Assembly (NCBI GenBank): GCA_964634445.1 | Contig: CAZWJA010000004.1 | Span: 13,258 to 77,257 of the forward strand | DNA length: 64,000 bases | DNA from: an uncultured Candidatus Saccharibacteria bacterium | GTDB lineage: Bacteria > Patescibacteriota > Saccharimonadia > Saccharimonadales > AWTP1-31 | Direction of reading: 5' to 3' | Part shown: positions 9,443 through 28,463 of the stretch, one piece after another | Numbering within the stretch: the stretch's first letter is position 1 | Layout: each line of letters opens with the position of its first letter | Notes under the pieces: generated by a model | Told to the model about the DNA's origin: nothing | What the model saw: the letters and a program-made list of their open reading frames with translations, nothing else | The model's database searches: none | Translations under genes and position numbers: made by a program

Positions 9443-10144
9443 ATGCGCGTAATAGGACATAGAGGGGCGGCAGGACTAGCGGCCGAAAACAGTATTAGTG
9501 CCATTAAAGCAGCCATTGCTGCCGGAGTGGACGCTGTTGAGTTTGATATTCGTTTGTCAAAAGACGGCAAGTTGTTTTTATGTCATGACCCGAGTTTGCA
9601 GCGGACGCATGACGTAGAAGAGCATATTGCCAATCTGACTAGTCATGAAATTAAAAAACTTAAAACTAAAAATGGCGATCACGTACCATCGCTTGAAGAA
9701 GCCTTAAAGACCTGCCATGGAGTCAAAGTCTTTATAGAAGCTAAAGGTAGCGACTGGGCCAATCAGCTAGCTAAAGTGGTTTCAGACCACCCGGATAAGA
9801 GTTCATTCAAAGTTATTTCATTCAATCACCAAGAATTATTCGAGTTTACTGAATATTGTCCAGAGATTCCTTGCTATGTTTTAGAACACCGCAACCCGTT
9901 CGACGCTATTAATGCCGCCCGCTTGTATAACTTTAGCGGTATTGATGTTAACTACTGGACCCTGAATCCTCTGGCCTACCATCTGGCAAGGCGCCATAAT
10001 TTAGATATTGCAGTTTTTACCGTCGATAAGCCCTGGATTGCCAAACTAATGAAGATTTTCTACTCCGACATATGGATTACTACAAATTACCCAAACAAAT
10101 TTCAATTCCTTAGGAGAAAGACAAGCCGCAGGAAGCGAAAATGA
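9443..10144 (+). CDS. glycerophosphodiester phosphodiesterase (GDPD family)
   Basis: HRGAAGLAAENS...EFDIRLSKDGKLFLCHD is the GDPD N-terminal signature. Confidence 0.8.
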   Translation: MRVIGHRGAAGLAAENSISAIKAAIAAGVDAVEFDIRLSKDGKLFLCHDPSLQRTHDVEEHIANLTSHEIKKLKTKNGDHVPSLEEALKTCHGVKVFIEAKGSDWANQLAKVVSDHPDKSSFKVISFNHQELFEFTEYCPEIPCYVLEHRNPFDAINAARLYNFSGIDVNYWTLNPLAYHLARRHNLDIAVFTVDKPWIAKLMKIFYSDIWITTNYPNKFQFLRRKTSRRKRK

Positions 10145-21829: not shown

Positions 21830-23077
21830 CTACAAAAGTACGTTGCTATCTTCTTCTACGATTTCTGCTTCAGCTGTTGTTTTGTCGGCTAAAACCTGTA
21901 CTTTGTTAAGCTGACGTTCAATTGTCCGGCTCTTGGTGCTGGCTGTATCAATGTTCTTAGTGGCTTGAACTAGCTTTTCTCGCGTCTTGTCCAGAAGATC
22001 ACCAAACTTACCAAATTCACCTTTTATTCCTGTCAGCAGTTCCCATACTTGTCCGGTTTGTTCGGCAATTGCCAGCGTCCTAAAGCCAAGTTGGTAGCTG
22101 CTAAGTATGGCCGCAATTGTAGTTGGTCCGGCAATGGTTACCCGGTATTCGCTCTGAAGCATTTCAAATAGTCCCGGTTCGCGTAGAATCTCAGCAAACA
22201 TGCCTTCAGTAGGCACGTATAAGACAGCAAAGTCGGTTGTTTTAGGCGGGGCGATATATTTGTTTTTAATTGACTTAGCCTCTATTTTAACTCTGGCTAC
22301 CATAGCTTTTTGCGCGGCTGCAGCCAGAACTGCGTCGCCTTTTTCCTGGGCAACAACCAGGCGCTGGTAATCTTCCAATGGAAATTTAGAGTCAATCGGC
22401 AAATATATAAATCCATTAGCCGAGCTTTTGTCTGGCAGCTTAATAGCAAAATCGACAACTTCGCTTGATTTCGGGTTTACCCGAACCTGCTTTTCGTAGT
22501 GGTCCTTAATAAAGACTTGTTCTAGCAGGTTTTCCAGCTGGACTTCACCCCAGGTTCCTCTTGTTTTCACATTTGTTAGTACCCGTTTGAAGTCGCTGAC
22601 GTCTGTAGCTAAGTTCTGCATTTCACCGAGGCCTTTATGGACCATTTCCAGTCTCTCGCTGACAACCTTAAAACTTTGGCTAAGCCGCTTTTCAAGCGTA
22701 CTCTGTAGCTTCTCATCGACAGTGCTGCGCATTTTCTCTAGTTTCTCAGCATTGTCCTTCTGTAGAGATTCAAGCCTTGTTTCAACAGTCTTTCTAATAG
22801 ACTCCAGTTTTTCATCATTCTTGTCACGCATTTGGTCCAATCGCTTTTCTAGCGAGTCTCTAGACTGAACAAGTCCAGCGTTTATTTCCTGGCGCAGTTC
22901 TTTATTGGCACTAGCAAATTCTTTACGGTTCTGGGCAAATTCGCCTCTCGCAACACCGTCCATTCCATCCGAGCTGCTTTTCTTAATAAAGATAAGATAC
23001 ACAAGAAGTAGGATGTTTATAAAACCAATTGCCAACATAACTCCATTCATATGTCTAATTATAGCTCTTATGGTCAT
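21830..23077 (-). CDS. rmuC: DNA recombination protein RmuC
   Basis: 415 aa with an N-terminal TM segment, a long coiled coil (repeated LE/KL heptads), and a C-terminal RmuC nuclease-like domain (AVLYVPTEGMFAE). Confidence 0.8.
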   Translation of the reverse strand: MTIRAIIRHMNGVMLAIGFINILLLVYLIFIKKSSSDGMDGVARGEFAQNRKEFASANKELRQEINAGLVQSRDSLEKRLDQMRDKNDEKLESIRKTVETRLESLQKDNAEKLEKMRSTVDEKLQSTLEKRLSQSFKVVSERLEMVHKGLGEMQNLATDVSDFKRVLTNVKTRGTWGEVQLENLLEQVFIKDHYEKQVRVNPKSSEVVDFAIKLPDKSSANGFIYLPIDSKFPLEDYQRLVVAQEKGDAVLAAAAQKAMVARVKIEAKSIKNKYIAPPKTTDFAVLYVPTEGMFAEILREPGLFEMLQSEYRVTIAGPTTIAAILSSYQLGFRTLAIAEQTGQVWELLTGIKGEFGKFGDLLDKTREKLVQATKNIDTASTKSRTIERQLNKVQVLADKTTAEAEIVEEDSNVLL

Positions 23078-23252: not shown

Positions 23253-23326
23253 TGGGGATTGGCCAAGTGGTAAGGCAGCGGATTCTGGTTCCGCGATCGG
23301 GGGTTCGAATCCCTCATCCCCAGCCA
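23253..23326 (+). tRNA. tRNA-Gln (anticodon CUG), CCA encoded
   Basis: Hand-folded cloverleaf. Acceptor TGGGGAT/ATCCCCA (U1:A72), D stem GCC/GGC, anticodon stem GCGGA/TCCGC with loop TTCTGGT, T arm GGGGG-TTCGAAT-CCCTC, discriminator G plus CCA. Confidence 0.9.
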
Positions 23327-23349
23327 AGTATTTCGTCAAAGGAGACATT

Positions 23350-24060
23350 TTGGCTCAAGATCATATTATTAGAGACGATGTAATTTCGTATCGGGAGATG
23401 TGCGACATTGAAAATGCTCAAACTCTTCAACGTGGTATGAATTTTAGATTAAATCCTAGTTATTCAGTGCTATTAATGTCTCAAAGGTCGAACGCCCCAT
23501 ATACAGACCGAATTCATGAAGATGGCGTCACTGTTGAGTATGAAGGTCATGATGTTTCTAGGAAGACGCACAATCACAATCCAAAGTTTGAAGATCAAGT
23601 TGATTATTTACCGTCGGGCAAGCGAACCCAAAATGGATTATTTATCAAAGCTGTCGAAAATTATAAAAACGGCAAAACCAGACCAGAATTGGTTAGAATA
23701 TATGAAAAAGTATTGCCAGGCGTTTGGTCCTTAAAAGGTATCTTTAAACTCATTGATTACAAAGTTGTTTTTGATAATGGCAGGAATGTTTTCAGATTTA
23801 TACTACGTTTGTCTGATGATCAAATAATTAATAAAGGGGCAAATTCACAAGATATCGAACATACAAGGGTTATCCCCAGTAAAGTCAAACTAGAAGTATG
23901 GAAAAGAGACAATGGTCAATGTGTTTTGTGTGGTACTACAGAAAATCTACACTTTGACCATGAATTGCCTTTTTCAATAGGTGGCACAAGTCTGACAGCC
24001 AATAACATTAGACTTCTTTGCATGAAACATAATCTTCAAAAATCAGCAAAAATTGAATAA
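23350..24060 (+). CDS. HNH endonuclease with N-terminal SRA/PUA-like putative modified-base reader domain (Type IV restriction-like)
   Basis: TTG start 5 nt after GGAG. C-terminal HNH motif CVLCGTTENLHFDHELPFSIGGTSLTANNIRLLCMKHNLQK. The N-terminal ~170 aa follow an SRA-like motif order (QRGMNF, SVLLMS, YTDRIHEDGVTVEYEGHD, EDQ...NGLFIKAVE, LVRIYEKV, VFRFILRL). Confidence 0.7.
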   Translation: MAQDHIIRDDVISYREMCDIENAQTLQRGMNFRLNPSYSVLLMSQRSNAPYTDRIHEDGVTVEYEGHDVSRKTHNHNPKFEDQVDYLPSGKRTQNGLFIKAVENYKNGKTRPELVRIYEKVLPGVWSLKGIFKLIDYKVVFDNGRNVFRFILRLSDDQIINKGANSQDIEHTRVIPSKVKLEVWKRDNGQCVLCGTTENLHFDHELPFSIGGTSLTANNIRLLCMKHNLQKSAKIE

Positions 24061-24095
24061 ATACGGGCCTTGTCGCTCAGTCTGGTATTTAGTGG

Positions 24096-24385
24096 CTAAA
24101 GATTTTCTAAAGGTATTCCCGTTTTATCAGAAACTTTTCTTGCCCATACTAGCAGTTTCTCGAACTGATTATCACGAGCTGTTATTCAGTTTCATACTTA
24201 TCTATTCTAGAAATAAAACCGTCAATTGTATTTATCAGCCGATCATACTTAGATTCCATCACATTAAAACGCTCGTCAACTTGTTTCATAAAAGTATGCA
24301 AAATATCTGTCAGATCATTAAAAGACTCATCGATTTTGTTGTTCAGATCAGTGATATCTTTTTTTGTTACTACTTCGCTCATCAC
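24096..24385 (-). pseudogene. small coiled-coil protein gene interrupted by a frameshift
   Basis: Frame A (GTG 24385 / ATG 24382 to TAA 24184-24182) encodes (M)MSEVVTKKDITDLNNKIDES...RIDKYETE. From 24185 to TAG 24098-24096 a second frame, offset by one base, stays open and encodes ITARDNQFEKLLVWARKVSDKTGIPLENL. The total of 290 nt is one base short of a multiple of 3. Confidence 0.5.
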
Positions 24386-24409
24386 CCTATTATATCACCA
24401 ACTTCATCT

Positions 24410-24440
24410 GCGACCGGGTTAGAATCCTTCATCTACAACC
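24410..24440 (+). repeat. degenerate copy of the tRNA-Gln 3' portion (variable loop, T arm, acceptor)
   Basis: GCGACCGGGTTAGAATCCTTCATCT aligned by hand to tRNA-Gln 23293-23319 (GCGATCGGGGGTTCGAATCCCTCATCC) gives 21 of 25 aligned positions identical with one 2-nt gap. Same orientation as the tRNA. The T stem no longer pairs. Confidence 0.5.
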
Positions 24441-24509
24441 TTATATATAAAGTTTTTTTAATTAAAATATTAGAAAAAAAGATAGTATTAAACTTGAGTA
24501 AAATTGTTA

Positions 24510-24785
24510 TCAATCAATGTTTCTTCCGTGTGTATGTCCGAGCCTATACTCGCCAATCAGCGATCCAACTACCATACTTCTCATAGTTGCCTGTGCTATA
24601 AGTAACTCTGCTTTTGTCATACCTGGGCGAAACAGAGTTGATATTTGACTTGCTGTCGAACGAGCTTCCTCAATCCGCCAGAGCTCATTTTCTTCACTTG
24701 TGCCGAACACAGTAAATTCAGGTACTACAAGCGGAGTTTCCGCGCTACTTTCTGTTACTTCCGGCACAAACTCAAATCTAGCCAT
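24510..24785 (-). CDS. hypothetical protein (91 aa)
   Basis: ORF with plausible amino-acid composition (MARFEFVPEVTESSAETPLV...). No SD or motif recognised. Confidence 0.4.
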   Translation of the reverse strand: MARFEFVPEVTESSAETPLVVPEFTVFGTSEENELWRIEEARSTASQISTLFRPGMTKAELLIAQATMRSMVVGSLIGEYRLGHTHGRNID

Positions 24786-24933
24786 ATTTTAGTAATTCTA
24801 ACTATGCATAAAATATTTGCAAGAATAAGAATTTAGAATTTAGTAGTAGCATGCCTAACAATCACCGGAAATGACTTCCAGGTGTTATATAGGAGTATAA
24901 TTTAGACATAATTAAATTACGGGGGACAGCAAT

Positions 24934-25014
24934 ATGGCTAAATTCGAAATTTACAAGTGTAATAACGGATATCGCTGCAGACCAAATGCCTCCGCATGCG
25001 ATACTAATATTTAA
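24934..25014 (+). CDS. 26-aa micro-ORF resembling the N-terminus of a YegP/DUF1508 repeat (possible remnant)
   Basis: MAKFEIYKCNNGYRCRPNASACDTNI compares with the DUF1508 start KFE(I/V)YKD..G.(Y/W)R(F/W)RL.A.NGE. A GGGGGA purine tract lies 7 nt upstream. Its TAA directly abuts the next ATG (TAAATG). Confidence 0.35.
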   Translation: MAKFEIYKCNNGYRCRPNASACDTNI

Positions 25015-25587
25015 ATGAATTTACAATCTACCATCAGTAAATCTATCGGTGAAGACGTTCAGCAGCAAATTGCTAATAAAACTAATACAAGTCCTGATAA
25101 GGTAAATAGCATTATTACGTCTAGTCTTCCTATTCTTCTTGGTACGCTTGGAAAAAATGCATCTAGAGATAAAGGTGCGGCAGAATTGTCGCAAACTCTA
25201 GACGAAAAACATGACGGATCTCTGCTATCTAATATTGGAGATTTGTTTACTAAAAGCGGCGATACGAACTCAGAGGGCGATAAGATCCTTGGACATATAT
25301 TTGATTCCAAATCAGATGCCACAGAAAAAATTGCAAAAAAGAACGGAGTTGATATTTCTACTGTAATAAAGGTGTTAAGCTTCATTGCCCCAATAGTCCT
25401 AGCTCAGCTCGGCAAGAAGAAGATTGAATCAAAATTGGACAAAGGCGGTCTAACAGATTTATTAAAACAGCAAAAAACAGCTAATGGCAATCCATTAATG
25501 GACATCGCGACTAAATTCTTTGATAAAGATGGCGACGGTCAAGTTGTAGATGACCTATTTAATATGTTTAGTAAAGGAGCAAAGTAA
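25015..25587 (+). CDS. DUF937-family protein with C-terminal DxDxDG calcium-binding-type loop
   Basis: The layout LPILLGTLGKNASRDKGAAELSQTLDEKHDGSLL...ILGHIF...IAPIVLAQLGKK matches the DUF937 pattern as I recall it. C-terminal FDKDGDGQVVDD loop. Confidence 0.7.
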   Translation: MNLQSTISKSIGEDVQQQIANKTNTSPDKVNSIITSSLPILLGTLGKNASRDKGAAELSQTLDEKHDGSLLSNIGDLFTKSGDTNSEGDKILGHIFDSKSDATEKIAKKNGVDISTVIKVLSFIAPIVLAQLGKKKIESKLDKGGLTDLLKQQKTANGNPLMDIATKFFDKDGDGQVVDDLFNMFSKGAK

Positions 25588-26216
25588 TGGCAAGTACAGA
25601 TAAGAACACAGAAAAAAGTCAGCCGGCAAAAACTGTCGATGACTCGGCGAAAATAGCCAAAGAACGACAGAAAAATGCCGAAGGCGGTTTTTTCCTTAGA
25701 TCAGCGGTCTGGCTATTGTCTAGATTCCCACTTACAAAAAATAGATATCAGAATTGGACTTCCGGTAGAAGAATATTAGTCGGCTGGATATTATGGTTAA
25801 TTTGTCTACCGATTATTCCGATCGCAGCCATAATCTTGTGGTGGCTTAAGGATCCTGAAGGATTTAAGAAAAGTCCGTGGGCTAAGGCATTAGTTGCGCT
25901 GGCTGTTGTATGGGCCGGAGCATTCGGTATAGTTGCGACCTCACCAGCCCAGCTGGATCAGAACGGCAAATACTCGCCAGTCCAGACTCAAGCTGACGGA
26001 GAAAAAGGATCAGTCACTGACAAGCCAGCCTCAGCAGCGTCCGAATCTGCAAAGGAAAAGATAAAAAACCAATCTGAAAGCAAGCAGTCCAATGGCCGAA
26101 GCTTTGACAACTGTACAGAAGCATTTGATGCCGGCGTATTCAATATAAAAAGATCTGATTCATCATACGATAATAAACTCGACCGTGATAACGATGGTAT
26201 TGCCTGCGAACGTTAA
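25587..26216 (+). CDS. membrane protein with C-terminal Excalibur calcium-binding domain
   Basis: TAATG 1-nt overlap with the upstream gene, with AAAGGAG inside that gene's end. Hydrophobic segments are present. C-terminal FDNCTEAF...LDRDNDGIACE is the Excalibur motif. Confidence 0.75.
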   Translation: MASTDKNTEKSQPAKTVDDSAKIAKERQKNAEGGFFLRSAVWLLSRFPLTKNRYQNWTSGRRILVGWILWLICLPIIPIAAIILWWLKDPEGFKKSPWAKALVALAVVWAGAFGIVATSPAQLDQNGKYSPVQTQADGEKGSVTDKPASAASESAKEKIKNQSESKQSNGRSFDNCTEAFDAGVFNIKRSDSSYDNKLDRDNDGIACER

Positions 26217-26356
26217 ATACATAAAATTCAAAATATTTAGTTAAACGAATTTTAATATATACAAATGTATATTTGTTCTTACATATTGATTGTAATTCAA
26301 AGCTGTATTGCTTATCATTAAGCTATCTTGTAATAAAGTAAGTGCTGTAAAGCTAT

Positions 26357-27475
26357 ATGATAAAAACTAAACTGAATCGATTTTTGAAGTACGAAAAGAC
26401 TTTAGCATTTATTTTAATAATTGGTATTAGTGCAGTTGGCACTTTTTTGTTAGTTAATACTAGAGCTGCAACACCCACAGCAGCTTTTGAGACTGAACTT
26501 GGCAGTATAATTTCTCCTGCGAAAATATTAGATAACATTCCTAGTGCATCAAATAGTAAGGGTGTACTTTTTGCCAATAATTCCGTTGCCAATCCAGTAA
26601 GTTCAGACAATCCTTGCGTCGGTAATTCTGCTCCTTCTGCTGGTTGGAAACATATCGTGGTTCTAATGTTTGAAAACAAAACTTACAACTCCGTTATCGG
26701 GTCGGCAAGCGCACCTTACATATCTAGTCTTGCCAATAAATGTGGAAGCTATACAGCTTGGAAAGACGCCAACTTAAAAGTAAATGGAACAGTGGATGGT
26801 AGTTATAGTTCAAAACCTAATTACGCAACCTTAACTAGCGGTGTACCACCAAGTGTACACGGTATGATAGATAATACTTTTACTACAACAAGTAGTGTAG
26901 ATAATATTTTCAATCGTCTTAAAAATATAGGTAAATCGGCAAAAGTATATCAGAATGGCGTCGCTAACAGTTGTAACAAATCCAATTTCAGCGGGTCATA
27001 CCATGATCCCCTTCGTTACTACACTAATTTAGGAGGCCAATCAGCGGATACAACTACTTATTGCAACAAGAATGATATCCCACTCAGTAACTTCATGACA
27101 GATGTTAATAATGGCAATTTGCCAGCTTATTCAATGATTATTCCAACTAACAATGAGAACATGCATGACAATTCGATATCAAGTGGTGACTCATGGGCTC
27201 AAGCATTCCTAGTCCCGCTTCTTGATAGTGCTCAGTATAAATCAGGCGATACAGCAGTTTTCTTCTTATGGGATGAAGATACACCGATACCAAATGTACT
27301 GATAGCTCCATCTATCGACAGCGGTTCAAAGCCTGCTATTCCTGGGGCTGGCAGTAACCCGATTGGGCATTATAGTGCGCTAAGAACCTGGCAAGAAATG
27401 TTGGGTGTATCACCGTTTCTTGGTGACAGTGGTCAGGCCCCTAGTTTGCTTAGTTATTTTAATGGGAGTTTATAG
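26357..27475 (+). CDS. secreted/anchored phosphoesterase-family protein (acid phosphatase / phospholipase C family)
   Basis: N-terminal signal-anchor (LAFILIIGISAVGTFLLV). HIVVLMFENKTYNSVIG matches the phosphoesterase-family start (vvvlm.EN.sfd...G). Confidence 0.65.
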   Translation: MIKTKLNRFLKYEKTLAFILIIGISAVGTFLLVNTRAATPTAAFETELGSIISPAKILDNIPSASNSKGVLFANNSVANPVSSDNPCVGNSAPSAGWKHIVVLMFENKTYNSVIGSASAPYISSLANKCGSYTAWKDANLKVNGTVDGSYSSKPNYATLTSGVPPSVHGMIDNTFTTTSSVDNIFNRLKNIGKSAKVYQNGVANSCNKSNFSGSYHDPLRYYTNLGGQSADTTTYCNKNDIPLSNFMTDVNNGNLPAYSMIIPTNNENMHDNSISSGDSWAQAFLVPLLDSAQYKSGDTAVFFLWDEDTPIPNVLIAPSIDSGSKPAIPGAGSNPIGHYSALRTWQEMLGVSPFLGDSGQAPSLLSYFNGSL

Positions 27476-27477
27476 CA

Positions 27478-27966
27478 ATGGTTTTGCATTCAACTCGTTT
27501 GCGGTCTAGAAGAATTGTATTACTAATATTGTTTATAGTTTTTTTGGTGCTACTAGTCCTGACATTCAAAGCAACTAGAAAAGATAAAGTTCCAATAAAT
27601 TCAAATGCTCCTATTTCTAATTCACAAGTTACTGTTCCAGCCTATGATCAGCGAATTAACGACCCTAATAAAAGCTTCGACATAGTCGTAGAACATGAAA
27701 AGATTGTTAAAGGACCTAGTAAGATCATTGTCAACAAAGGAGATACTGTGAGGGTGAATTTAACTGCTATCGGTGAAGAAGCAAAAGTGCATCTTGAGGT
27801 ATACGACATAATTACGGAGCATGACCCATCGGATAATGTACCCGGGGGGTTTAGCTTTGTAGCCGACAAACAAGGAACTTTTGATTTCTATGCATTAGGA
27901 GAAGCCTCTGCCGATGGTACGCCTAATAATTCAAAAAAACTCTTAGGTTCAATAATAGTAAAATAA
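27478..27966 (+). CDS. membrane-anchored hypothetical protein (possible cupredoxin-like beta-sandwich)
   Basis: 162 aa with an N-terminal TM (IVLLILFIVFLVLLVLTF). The IIVNKGDTVRVNL segment recalls cupredoxin-like domains, but the fold call is weak. Starts 2 nt after the phosphoesterase stop. Confidence 0.45.
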   Translation: MVLHSTRLRSRRIVLLILFIVFLVLLVLTFKATRKDKVPINSNAPISNSQVTVPAYDQRINDPNKSFDIVVEHEKIVKGPSKIIVNKGDTVRVNLTAIGEEAKVHLEVYDIITEHDPSDNVPGGFSFVADKQGTFDFYALGEASADGTPNNSKKLLGSIIVK

Positions 27967-28018
27967 ATAGTTTCAATAATTACAGTTAAGCTTACTAATA
28001 ATACCGTATACTAGAATA

Positions 28019-28444
28019 ATGAAAGATATATTTACAAACGTAGAAACAAGATATGTGTTAGGTCTATTAGTTTCATTAATCTGTGGAATTCTGATCGGGG
28101 CTGAACGAGAGTTAAAGAAGAAACCGGCTGGAGTAAGCACTCAGACACTAGTAATTGGTGGTTCTATGACTTTCGCTTTTCTATCTCAGATATTAGGGGC
28201 TGGTGATCCTGCCAGGATAGCTGCTCAAATAGTTTCTGGTGTTGGTTTCTTAGGGGCTGGTATAATTTTACGATCTGAAAATGGCAGTAAGGTAACAAAC
28301 GTAACCACAGCCGCAAGTATTTGGTTTTCAGCTTCTATTGGTATGGCTATAGGGTTTAAATATTACGTAATTGCCTTATCAGCAGCGTTATTTGCCATCA
28401 TTATTTCTCGTATTCCAAAAATAGATAAGTTTTTAGAAGAATAA
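28019..28444 (+). CDS. MgtC/SapB-family membrane protein
   Basis: 141 aa. LICGILIGAERELKKKPAGVSTQTLV and GVGFLGAGIILR are typical MgtC-domain motifs. Confidence 0.8.
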   Translation: MKDIFTNVETRYVLGLLVSLICGILIGAERELKKKPAGVSTQTLVIGGSMTFAFLSQILGAGDPARIAAQIVSGVGFLGAGIILRSENGSKVTNVTTAASIWFSASIGMAIGFKYYVIALSAALFAIIISRIPKIDKFLEE

Positions 28445-28463
28445 TCTTATAATTCTTCGTTTT

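What the first reader, a model, noticed from the sequence alone, without database searches (positions are those of the whole stretch)
23253..24440. Mini-island bounded by tRNA-Gln and a decayed copy of its 3' end
A fragment at 24410-24440, 1.1 kb downstream of tRNA-Gln(CUG), repeats the tRNA variable-loop/T-arm/acceptor sequence in the same orientation. My hand alignment gives 21 of 25 positions identical with one 2-nt gap. This is the usual scar of site-specific integration into a tRNA 3' end (attL/attR). The enclosed cargo is only the reader-HNH nuclease and a frameshifted small gene, with no integrase. It looks like an eroded integrative element that left a defence gene behind.
Basis: partly seen in the sequence, partly recalled or inferred. 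Interest (0 to 1): 0.55.

Follow-up and report, generated by a model that had tools for sequence, protein, structure and literature searches.

The report
Restriction-gene cassette docked at tRNA-Gln end
In this Saccharibacteria genome a small self-contained module encoding a methylated-DNA-sensing nuclease sits exactly after the last base of a tRNA-Gln gene, followed by a broken small gene and a worn copy of the tRNA's 3' half, which marks this tRNA as a recurrent docking site for small defence modules.

Summary
tRNA-Gln(CTG) lies at 23253-23326. Positions 24407-24440 repeat its 3' half in the same orientation (24 of 29 identical with one 2-nt gap; P about 0.0015-0.01).

In related Saccharibacteria the 3' flank of tRNA-Gln is a real integration hot spot:
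- copies of the tRNA 3' end lie 95-950 nt downstream in at least four lineages;
- large serine recombinase genes abut the tRNA in two;
- several contigs break exactly at the tRNA.

However, the nuclease is not just leftover cargo. It is a discrete 757-bp unit (23327-24083) with three parts: a 21-23-nt leader directly after CCA, an SRA-HNH ORF, and a 23-nt tail ending in a CAGCCA-like repeat. The same unit occurs in at least 10 different neighbourhoods. The same leader and tail bound unrelated cargo in relatives (a reverse transcriptase, a 246-aa ORF, a seven-gene block), sometimes in tandem.

It also encloses a small gene broken by a frameshift. No recombinase is in the window.

The closest precedents are the tandem ssrA islands of Dehalococcoides, tycheposons and cis-mobilizable elements. 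I rate it a new variant of a known kind, of moderate interest.

The parts
21830..23077 (-). RmuC gene, the last gene of the conserved syntenic block. Synteny with Saccharibacteria relatives ends here.
   Evidence: Pfam RmuC, E = 1.8e-73. 63-84% aa identity in L001-L056 with conserved upstream gene order.
23253..23326 (+). tRNA-Gln(CUG) with encoded CCA. It is the docking site (attL side). A TATAAT box lies 14 nt upstream.
   Evidence: ARAGORN; Rfam tRNA 61 bits. The sequence is identical to the tRNA-Gln of relatives L008 and L053, which lack the nuclease.
23327..23349 (+). Unit leader AGTATTTCGTCAAAGGAGACATT. It starts directly after CCA and contains the ribosome-binding site. There is no room for a promoter or terminator.
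   Evidence: Conserved in all Saccharibacteria-type HNH units. A 21-nt weight matrix trained on these leaders hits, in the same register, three units with other cargo (L009, L098 unit 2, L046), each P < 2e-6. No promoter-like site lies between the tRNA and the ORF.
23350..24060 (+). 236-aa SRA-like reader plus HNH nuclease (TTG start). Predicted modification-dependent (type IV) restriction endonuclease.
   Evidence: Pfam HNH/HNH_5 at residues 191-235, below the curated cutoffs. Invariant C191, C194, H201, D203, H204, N219, C224, H227 and N228. AlphaFold2 model pLDDT 70. Foldseek top hits are SUVH5/UHRF1 SRA domains, AspBHI and ScoMcrA, E from 1.6e-5. More than 3000 homologues; the best 120 are >= 68% identical.
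24061..24083 (+). Unit tail ATACGGGCCTTGTCGCTCAGTCT. It is a degenerate copy of the conserved tail (consensus about ATCTWGACYnnnAYGCTCAGCCA), whose end repeats the tRNA's terminal CAGCCA.
   Evidence: It sits immediately after the stop codon, as in L087, L096, L098, L099 and L100. Matrix score over the 18 non-core columns gives P = 0.006. Across 8 junctions identity falls from 0.73-0.81 to 0.25 directly after the tail.
24096..24385 (-). Small coiled-coil gene broken by a 1-nt deletion near 24182-24186. The open part is 24182-24385 (67 aa); the last 29 codons are in another frame.
   Evidence: Six-frame translation compared with the intact homologue of about 95 aa in L031. The DNA alignment shows the single-base gap. 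Coordinates. An independent Logan contig, L175, is 100% identical over 23972-24943.
24407..24440 (+). Decayed direct copy of the tRNA-Gln 3' half (variable loop, T arm, acceptor 3' strand). Probable outer, older attR-type scar.
   Evidence: Local alignment 24 of 29 with one 2-nt gap. P = 0.0015 by Markov model and 0.005 empirically. Not a tRNA by Rfam or folding. Comparable copies occur in relatives.
24510..24785 (-). Orphan 91-aa ORF just beyond the fragment (context only). The flank is not conserved in any relative.
   Evidence: Only itself found among 5.8 billion proteins. No Pfam or NCBIfam hit.

Best explanation
The 3' end of tRNA-Gln in this Saccharibacteria lineage is a site-specific docking site where small modules accumulate. 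The window holds a two-layer islet.

Layer 1 (23327-24083) is a 757-bp unit inserted exactly after the tRNA's CCA. It consists of a 23-nt leader with the ribosome-binding site, one ORF for an SRA-HNH nuclease, and a 23-nt tail ending in a slightly decayed repeat of the tRNA's last bases (CAGCCA became CAGTCT).

Layer 2 (24084-24440) is older debris: a small gene broken by a frameshift and a decayed copy of the tRNA 3' half. The copy is the attR-type scar of an earlier integration by a different element type.

Inferred steps: units of this leader-cargo-tail type are inserted and removed by a recombinase supplied in trans. Large serine recombinases that abut the same tRNA in relatives are the leading candidates. 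New arrivals insert next to the tRNA and push older ones outward.

Also inferred: the nuclease has no promoter of its own, so it is transcribed by read-through from the tRNA promoter. It cuts DNA carrying modified cytosines, that is, it defends against modified phage DNA. The window's copy has a decayed tail and no recombinase nearby, so it is probably no longer mobile.
For: Shown:
- The nuclease unit has sharp, conserved ends in independent contexts. L081 and L086 are 100% identical from CCAGCCA onward but differ upstream. Similarity of L087-type loci to the window begins 12 nt before the start codon, and every blastn match ends at the stop codon. The 23-nt tail follows the stop, or follows a second gene in L081 and L097. 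Identity drops to background directly after the tail.
- The ends are not specific to the nuclease. The leader matrix hits in register after the tRNA in L009 and L046 (reverse transcriptase cargo) and after tail 1 in L098, each P < 2e-6. The tail matrix hits after L098's second ORF and 6.35 kb after the L009 tRNA, P <= 4e-4.
- Arrays and insertion next to the tRNA. L098 has tRNA | HNH unit | 246-aa unit. L084 shares L098's upstream genes but has an extra 1.55 kb between the tRNA and the HNH unit.
- Patchy presence at the same site. The unit sits 23-25 nt after tRNA-Gln in the window, L091, L092-94 and L098, whose tRNA sequences and neighbours differ. It is absent from L008 and L053 (tRNA identical to the window's) and from L003 and L032 (tRNA identical to L092's).
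- GC falls to 0.34 over 23.5-24.5 kb, against 0.41 for the window.
- The nuclease has an SRA fold and an intact HNH motif.
- There is no terminator or promoter between the tRNA and the ORF. Several relatives without the unit show what looks like a hairpin-plus-T-run terminator right after the tRNA (my reading of the sequences; no terminator scan was run on them).
Against: - No empty site could be shown for the window itself. Neither 24084+ nor 24441+ is homologous to the post-tRNA flank of any relative.
- The window's tail is weak on its own (9 of 23 to the tRNA end by eye; matrix P = 0.006).
- Three upstream junctions (L081, L086, L097) do not score as tails without gaps.
- Beyond CAGCCA the tail is barely similar to the tRNA end (P 0.04-0.23).
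- No recombinase is in the window, or in the gene lists of the HNH loci looked up. An LSR lies about 1.9 kb downstream of HNH in L140. No circular or excised form was seen.
- No hairpin or dyad symmetry that would identify the recombinase class was evident by inspection.
- The two large serine recombinases are only 23% identical, and their elements' far ends are off-contig.
- Most distant HNH homologues (about 75 of 94 loci) are not near any tRNA.
Confidence: 0.55

Rival explanations
1. A single integrative element entered the tRNA-Gln 3' end. The tRNA and the 24407-24440 copy are its attL and attR. Internal deletions removed the integrase and most genes, leaving the nuclease and a broken small gene.
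For: The direct repeat is real and in register. GC is low. There is no integrase. Single-gene islets bounded by the tRNA and a copy of its 3' end exist in relatives: a 250-aa ORF in L008, and tRNA-Asn, HNH and a 16-nt copy in L136/L141.
Against: The nuclease has its own conserved ends 324 nt before the fragment and occurs with those ends in at least 10 other contexts. L091 and L092-94 have the same tRNA-nuclease junction with no copy of the tRNA T-arm or 3' half within 3 kb, and L098 has none within 500 nt of the HNH stop. The fragment does not match the tail matrix.
Confidence: 0.2
2. The fragment is a chance match, largely carried by a T-loop-like decamer. Only the nuclease unit is real.
For: Another site in the window reaches the same alignment score. 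One-mismatch matches to GTTCGAATCC are frequent in these genomes. The flank beyond the fragment has no homologue that could confirm it as the original tRNA flank.
Against: P is 0.0015-0.005 for the region actually inspected. The match extends on both sides of the T loop into Gln-specific sequence (10 of 12 in the anticodon-stem/variable region, read from the alignment). It has the orientation and register expected of an att copy. About one third of comparable loci in this clade carry such copies.
Confidence: 0.1
3. tRNA-Gln plus nuclease is an old, vertically inherited transcription unit. The leader and tail are expression or processing signals (tRNA trailer, mRNA 3' end). The patchy distribution reflects repeated loss and ordinary rearrangement.
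For: The spacing is fixed at 23-25 nt in four lineages whose tRNAs have co-diverged. The leader contains the ribosome-binding site. Nuclease divergence (80-86% aa) is similar to that of the housekeeping RmuC (72-84%).
Against: The same leader and tail flank unrelated cargo, including a unit whose ORF starts 250 nt after the leader. Identical units have different upstream neighbours. The family is 66-86% identical across phylum-level candidate-phyla-radiation groups such as Levybacteria and Daviesbacteria, which suggests horizontal spread.
Confidence: 0.08
4. The nuclease is a free-standing homing endonuclease that cuts empty tRNA-Gln 3' ends and is copied in by repair.
For: It is an HNH nuclease placed next to a highly conserved target, as a single-gene unit with patchy presence.
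Against: Units with the same ends carry no nuclease. The N-terminal domain is an SRA-type modified-base reader, typical of restriction enzymes rather than homing enzymes. Most family members are not at tRNAs.
Confidence: 0.05

Closest known systems
Dehalococcoides ssrA-specific genomic islands (PMC3146451)
   Same: Multiple tandem islands lie downstream of a small stable-RNA gene, each bounded by the gene or a short direct repeat of its 3' end. A large (CcrB-like) serine recombinase sits on the reverse strand next to attL, as in L041 and L052 here. A conserved motif that is not part of the RNA gene lies just upstream of each repeat, comparable to the tail here. Some islands lack the integration module and were proposed to be cis-mobilizable.
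   Different: The target here is tRNA-Gln, not tmRNA. The shared core is only about 6-7 nt (CAGCCA) rather than 20 bp. Units can be as small as one gene (0.76 kb). A conserved leader follows the core. The link between the recombinases and the leader-tail units has not been demonstrated.
Tycheposons and tRNA-seeded genomic islands of Prochlorococcus (bioRxiv 10.1101/2020.12.28.424599)
   Same: A streamlined genome in which flexible islands sit next to tRNA genes. Partial tRNAs mark successive integrations, and newcomers push older elements further into the island. Degenerate remnants lack integrases. Tyrosine or large serine recombinases are involved.
   Different: Tycheposons are integrase-carrying elements of several kb with about 40-nt partial-tRNA att sites. 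The units here are far smaller, carry no recombinase, and are bounded by a leader and tail rather than by long tRNA segments. The window's outer fragment is the feature that resembles a tycheposon-type scar.
Cis-mobilizable elements (CIMEs) formed by accretion and deletion of integrative elements (reviewed in PMC5704250)
   Same: Segments bounded by att sites that carry neither recombination nor transfer genes and depend on a recombinase supplied by another element.
   Different: CIMEs are defined by demonstrated mobilisation with a cognate integrative conjugative element. Nothing of that kind is shown here.
Integron gene cassettes
   Same: Small, mostly single-gene, promoterless units sit in tandem at one fixed site. 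Each ends in a conserved recombination-site-like motif, is expressed from an upstream promoter, and newest insertions lie next to the fixed site.
   Different: No IntI-type tyrosine recombinase is next to the site. No hairpin-forming attC structure is evident. The fixed site is the 3' end of a tRNA gene.
SRA-HNH modification-dependent restriction endonucleases: TagI, ScoA3IV/Sco5333, TbiR51I/Tbis1 (PMC6212794, PMC4333417)
   Same: N-terminal SRA-like modified-cytosine reader fused to a C-terminal zinc-containing HNH nuclease. Stand-alone gene.
   Different: No detectable sequence similarity to the solved members. Pfam SAD_SRA is not hit. This family is specific to the candidate phyla radiation, unusually conserved, and untested biochemically.

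Membership tests
tRNA-integrated genomic island (attL/attR direct repeat) | Intact tRNA gene at one boundary | tested here: met
   tRNA-Gln(CUG) at 23253-23326.
tRNA-integrated genomic island (attL/attR direct repeat) | Direct repeat of the tRNA 3' part at the other boundary, in the same orientation | tested here: met
   24407-24440, 24 of 29 with one gap; P = 0.0015-0.005. The copy is decayed.
tRNA-integrated genomic island (attL/attR direct repeat) | Site-specific recombinase encoded inside the island | tested here: not met
   Only the SRA-HNH ORF and a broken 95-aa gene lie between the boundaries. No relative of the L041 or L052 serine recombinases is anywhere in the window.
tRNA-integrated genomic island (attL/attR direct repeat) | Empty site in close relatives (tRNA joined directly to the distal flank) | tested here: inconclusive
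   Relatives with an identical tRNA (L008, L053) lack the nuclease. Their flanks are not homologous to 24084+ or 24441+, and the ORF beyond the fragment is an orphan.
tRNA-integrated genomic island (attL/attR direct repeat) | Composition differs from the surrounding genome | tested here: met
   GC is 0.34-0.36 at 23.5-25 kb against 0.41 for the window.
Tandem stable-RNA-gene islands driven by a large serine recombinase (Dehalococcoides ssrA-GI type) | Several units in tandem, each ending in a short repeat of the RNA gene's 3' end preceded by a conserved motif | tested here: met
   L098 has two units with tails. L081-L084 have a tail, then HNH plus DUF6994, then another tail. L009 has a 6.4-kb unit. 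The window has a tail at 24061-24083.
Tandem stable-RNA-gene islands driven by a large serine recombinase (Dehalococcoides ssrA-GI type) | Large serine recombinase on the reverse strand next to attL | tested here: inconclusive
   Present in relatives L041 and L052 (Resolvase + Recombinase + Zn_ribbon_recom). Absent from the window. It is unknown whether those elements end in a tail, because the contigs end.
Cis-mobilizable element (CIME) | att-type sites at both ends with no recombination or transfer genes | tested here: met
   Leader and tail ends; one ORF.
Cis-mobilizable element (CIME) | Excision or transfer driven by a cognate element's recombinase | not testable with these tools
   Needs read-level or experimental detection of excised circles.
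Integron cassette array | IntI tyrosine recombinase gene adjacent to the insertion site | tested here: not met
   The genes upstream of the tRNA differ between loci (RmuC, MgsA, VanY, GDSL lipase) and none is a recombinase.
Integron cassette array | attC sites that fold into imperfect hairpins | tested here: inconclusive
   No consistent inverted repeat was seen by inspecting tails and leaders. No systematic fold analysis was done.
SRA-HNH modification-dependent restriction endonuclease | N-terminal SRA (PUA-like) modified-base reader domain | tested here: met
   Fold level only. Foldseek hits SUVH5, UHRF1, AspBHI and ScoMcrA SRA domains, E from 1.6e-5, with a model of pLDDT 70. Pfam SAD_SRA and sequence searches of solved structures find nothing.
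SRA-HNH modification-dependent restriction endonuclease | C-terminal HNH motif with zinc ligands | tested here: met
   Pfam HNH/HNH_5 at 191-235, below the curated cutoffs. Invariant CxxC, H-x-DH, N, C and HN residues across 33 homologues.
SRA-HNH modification-dependent restriction endonuclease | Cleavage dependent on 5mC, 5hmC or a similar modification | not testable with these tools
   Requires biochemistry.
Free-standing homing endonuclease gene | Mobility depends on the encoded nuclease cutting the empty target | tested here: not met
   The same leader and tail bound units without any nuclease (L046 reverse transcriptase, L098 unit 2, L009).

The most novel reading that the evidence does not exclude
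Saccharibacteria, and perhaps other candidate-phyla-radiation bacteria, have an integron-like cassette system. In it the 3' end of tRNA-Gln (core CAGCCA) acts as the fixed insertion site. Promoterless leader-cargo-tail units, many of them defence genes, are shuffled in and out by a recombinase encoded elsewhere, probably a large serine recombinase. They are expressed by read-through from the tRNA promoter.
Probability: 0.3. Interest if true: 0.75.

Novelty: new variant of a known kind. Interest (0 to 1): 0.5.

Why it matters
Saccharibacteria are ultra-small episymbionts with genomes of about 1 Mb and few recognised mobile elements. How they acquire and exchange defence genes is poorly understood.

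If the leader-cargo-tail units at tRNA-Gln are real mobile cassettes, they give a concrete, sequence-defined route of gene flux in this group. They also give a simple way to find new cargo: look between the leaders and tails. Cargo seen so far includes a type IV nuclease, a reverse transcriptase, Fic and PLD-family genes.

The SRA-HNH family itself is very widespread and unusually conserved (more than 3000 homologues; the best 120 are >= 68% identical, and 80 metagenome loci are >= 65%) yet uncharacterised. That makes it a candidate new modification-dependent restriction enzyme.

Tried and rejected
1. Empty-site test for the window. Local alignments of 24084+ and 24441+ against the post-tRNA flanks of 13 relatives gave nothing significant; the best was L053 at P = 0.10. 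tblastn of the downstream ORFs against L001-L174 found only one p67 homologue, in L031.
2. Homologues of the 91-aa ORF beyond the fragment. It is an orphan. Its only other contigs are identical short pieces of the same strain.
3. The window's own nuclease protein is not indexed for a context look-up.
4. Sequence-level identification of the N-terminal domain found nothing in Pfam, NCBIfam, PADLOC or solved structures, by single sequence or by profile. Only the fold search worked.
5. Phage origin. There is no full-length relative in IMG/VR or in GenBank phages, only hits to the HNH domain.
6. A scan of IMG/VR for a tail|leader junction pattern gave 53 hits. None resembles the motifs outside the fixed bases, so they are chance matches.
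7. Scanning the window with the tail matrix finds nothing above background.
8. Looking by eye for terminal inverted repeats, or for dyad symmetry in a reconstructed tail|leader site, gave one 6-bp inverted repeat in one unit type that others do not share. I dropped this line.
9. Pseudo-tRNA reading of the fragment: no Rfam tRNA hit at E <= 1 and no cloverleaf.
10. The p67 homologue in L031 has no tRNA-like sequence near it, so the fragment is not a conserved part of that gene's upstream region.
Full report
**Observation**

The window is a Candidatus Saccharibacteria (TM7) contig with 41% GC. ARAGORN and Rfam place tRNA-Gln(CUG), with encoded CCA, at 23253-23326.

A gapped local alignment of the tRNA against the next 1.4 kb aligns tRNA positions 38-66 to 24407-24433. 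It gives 24 of 29 identities with one 2-nt gap, in the same orientation. Weaker similarity (4 of 8, read from the sequence) runs on to 24440.

- The score is reached by 0.15% of Markov sequences of that length.
- It is reached by 0.5% of real 500-nt chunks from related loci.
- One unrelated place in the window ties it.
- The fragment is not a tRNA or pseudo-tRNA.

**What lies between the tRNA and the fragment**

- 23350-24060 encodes a 236-aa protein with a C-terminal HNH motif. The zinc and catalytic residues are invariant in 33 homologues.
- Its N-terminal domain has no sequence match anywhere. An AlphaFold2 model (pLDDT 70) matches SRA domains of SUVH5 and UHRF1 and the SRA-containing restriction enzymes AspBHI and ScoMcrA. 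It is thus an SRA-HNH fusion of the type known as modification-dependent restriction endonucleases (PMC6212794, PMC4333417).
- 24096-24385 (minus strand) is a small coiled-coil gene broken by a 1-nt deletion, relative to an intact homologue of about 95 aa in L031. An independent assembly has the identical sequence.
- There is no recombinase here or elsewhere in the window.
- GC drops to 0.34 across this stretch.

**The locus in relatives**

Gene order from about 8.8 kb up to RmuC (21830-23077) is conserved in dozens of Saccharibacteria genomes and then breaks. tRNA-Gln lies 1.5-9 kb beyond RmuC in those genomes.

None of them has the nuclease within 10 kb, including L008 and L053, whose tRNA-Gln is identical to the window's. 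Three contigs end exactly at the tRNA (L005, L011, L054).

Copies of the tRNA 3' end, from the T loop to the acceptor end, lie a short way downstream in several lineages:

| Locus | Identity | Position after the tRNA | Note |
|---|---|---|---|
| L008 | 21/24 | +922 | encloses a single 250-aa ORF |
| L012 | 18/18 | +332 | |
| L024 | 21/22 | +154 | |
| L081/L083 | 17/19 | +95 | two further copies within about 5 kb |

Large serine recombinase genes end within about 70 nt of the tRNA, on the opposite strand, in L041 and L052. A reverse transcriptase follows the tRNA in L046. Fic, PLD-family, DpnI and methylase genes lie nearby in others.

The tRNA-Gln 3' flank is therefore a genuine integration and defence hot spot. 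This raises the prior that the window's fragment is a real scar.

**The nuclease is a unit of its own**

The family has more than 3000 homologues. The best 120 are at least 68% identical, and they extend into other candidate-phyla-radiation groups. The closest relatives (75-86% aa) sit in at least 10 different neighbourhoods.

In the window, L091, L092-94 and L098 the gene follows a tRNA-Gln at 23-25 nt. Those tRNAs differ in sequence and have different neighbours. No copy of the tRNA T-arm or 3' half lies within 3 kb in L091 and L092-94, or within 500 nt of the HNH stop in L098. Only the short tail core recurs, CAGCCA in L098 and CTCGCCA in L091.

Where no tRNA is adjacent, the sequence just upstream still ends in (C)CAGCCA followed by the same leader. 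L081 and L086 are identical from CCAGCCA onward and unrelated before it.

After the stop codon comes a conserved 23-nt tail, about ATCTWGACYnnnAYGCTCAGCCA. In L081-86 and L097 the tail comes only after a second gene. Identity among eight junctions falls from 0.73-0.81 to 0.25 immediately after the tail.

The window has this tail at 24061-24083 in degenerate form (matrix P = 0.006).

**The ends are shared with other cargo**

A matrix trained only on nuclease leaders matches, in exact register, three places, each with P < 2e-6:
- the 21 nt after the tRNA in L009;
- the 21 nt after the tRNA in L046 (reverse transcriptase, whose ORF starts 250 nt later);
- the 21 nt after the first tail in L098.

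A matrix trained only on post-gene tails finds strong tails at four places, with P between < 4e-4 and 0.002:
- after L098's second ORF;
- 6.35 kb after the L009 tRNA;
- upstream of the nuclease in L096;
- upstream of the nuclease in L087.

L084 shares L098's upstream genes but has an extra 1.55 kb between the tRNA and the nuclease unit.

The picture is of leader-cargo-tail units arranged in tandem next to tRNA-Gln, with insertions occurring at the tRNA-proximal end. Only the terminal CAGCCA is clearly shared between the tail and the tRNA.

**Interpretation for the window**

The order is: tRNA | leader, SRA-HNH, tail (23327-24083) | broken small gene | decayed tRNA 3' half (24407-24440) | orphan ORF.

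It retains the T loop and resembles the longer tRNA copies seen in L008, L012, L024 and L081. It is best read as the outer, older att-type scar of a different element type. The nuclease unit then either inserted later at the CCA or travelled separately.

With only 23 nt between the tRNA and the start codon, and no promoter or terminator there, the nuclease is most simply expressed by read-through from the tRNA promoter. Several relatives without the unit show what looks like a terminator right after the tRNA (my reading).

**What is not shown**

- No empty site could be found for the window.
- No excised form was found, and no recombinase is linked to the leader-tail units.
- The far ends of the two serine-recombinase elements are off-contig, and the two enzymes are only 23% identical.
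- No relative of the unit is in phage collections.
- Most distant family members are not next to tRNAs, although some follow tRNA-Asn or tRNA-Pro. L136/L141 have a 14/16 copy of the tRNA-Asn end 100 nt after the gene.

**Comparison with known systems**

The closest precedents are:
- the tandem ssrA-linked islands of Dehalococcoides (short 3'-end repeats, a conserved motif before each repeat, a reverse-strand serine recombinase next to attL, integrase-less islands; PMC3146451);
- tycheposon-seeded islands of Prochlorococcus (bioRxiv 10.1101/2020.12.28.424599);
- cis-mobilizable elements (PMC5704250).

The arrangement also works like an integron array but fails its defining features. There is no adjacent IntI and no evident attC hairpins.

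**Verdict**

The finding is a new variant of a known kind, of moderate interest. The integron-like reading is the most novel one that remains open.

Noticed in passing
L092 5420-5900 (also L093, L094): Just upstream of the real tRNA-Gln is a degenerate copy: the first 51 nt are identical to the tRNA, then an insertion of about 84 nt, then a decayed T arm. A second similar repeat lies about 370 nt further upstream, and T-loop-like motifs occur in both orientations. Part of it is similar to the 330-nt segment between the L012 tRNA-Gln and its 18-nt repeat.
   Followed up: partly
window about 9957-9987, minus strand: A 31-nt stretch inside a conserved coding region matches the D-arm and anticodon-arm part of tRNA-Gln (25 of 31). 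It ties the alignment score of the finding. Probably chance.
   Followed up: partly
L046 (reverse-complement orientation), +1 to +253 after tRNA-Gln: About 250 nt of non-coding sequence lies between the leader motif and a reverse-transcriptase gene (Pfam RVT_1). It could encode a retron-type non-coding RNA.
   Followed up: no
L121 3911-3982 and L122: Between tRNA-Pro(UGG) and the SRA-HNH gene lies a 37-nt decayed copy (30 of 37) of the tRNA-Pro 3' half, ending 21 nt before the start codon. Here the tRNA-like copy precedes the nuclease instead of following it.
   Followed up: partly
L136 and L141, about 100 nt after the HNH stop: A 16-nt copy (14 of 16) of the tRNA-Asn 3' end follows the nuclease, which itself starts 71 nt after tRNA-Asn. 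This is a single-gene islet in a different lineage and at a different tRNA.
   Followed up: partly
L005, L011, L054 (contig ends); L022, L034 (within 50 nt): Assemblies of several related genomes break exactly at the 3' end of tRNA-Gln. This suggests strain-level variation or repeats at this site.
   Followed up: no
window 24510-24785, minus strand: A 91-aa ORF with no homologue among 5.8 billion proteins other than itself. It may not be a real gene.
   Followed up: yes
window 23327-36600; L055: Genes from 25 to 36.6 kb look accessory: DUF937, Excalibur, phosphoesterase, MgtC, CHAP, a PIF1 helicase and DUF1295. The core gene for BipA (36623-38446) lies between RmuC and tRNA-Gln, inverted, in L055. 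The flexible or rearranged region may therefore reach well beyond the mini-island.
   Followed up: partly
L052 (stored orientation) 142-249: A second, partial copy (86% over 36 aa) of the C-terminus of the large serine recombinase lies next to the intact gene. This hints at tandem or decayed elements at that tRNA-Gln.
   Followed up: no
L098 5840-7230: Downstream of the two leader-tail units lie an N6/N4 DNA methylase fragment and a DpnI-family methyl-directed endonuclease, which are further restriction genes in the same flank.
   Followed up: no
HNH protein family (P0001-P0120; L095-L174): The SRA-HNH protein is 66-86% identical across Saccharibacteria, Levybacteria, Daviesbacteria and other candidate-phyla-radiation lineages. 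That is more conserved than the housekeeping RmuC within Saccharibacteria and suggests recent horizontal spread.
   Followed up: partly
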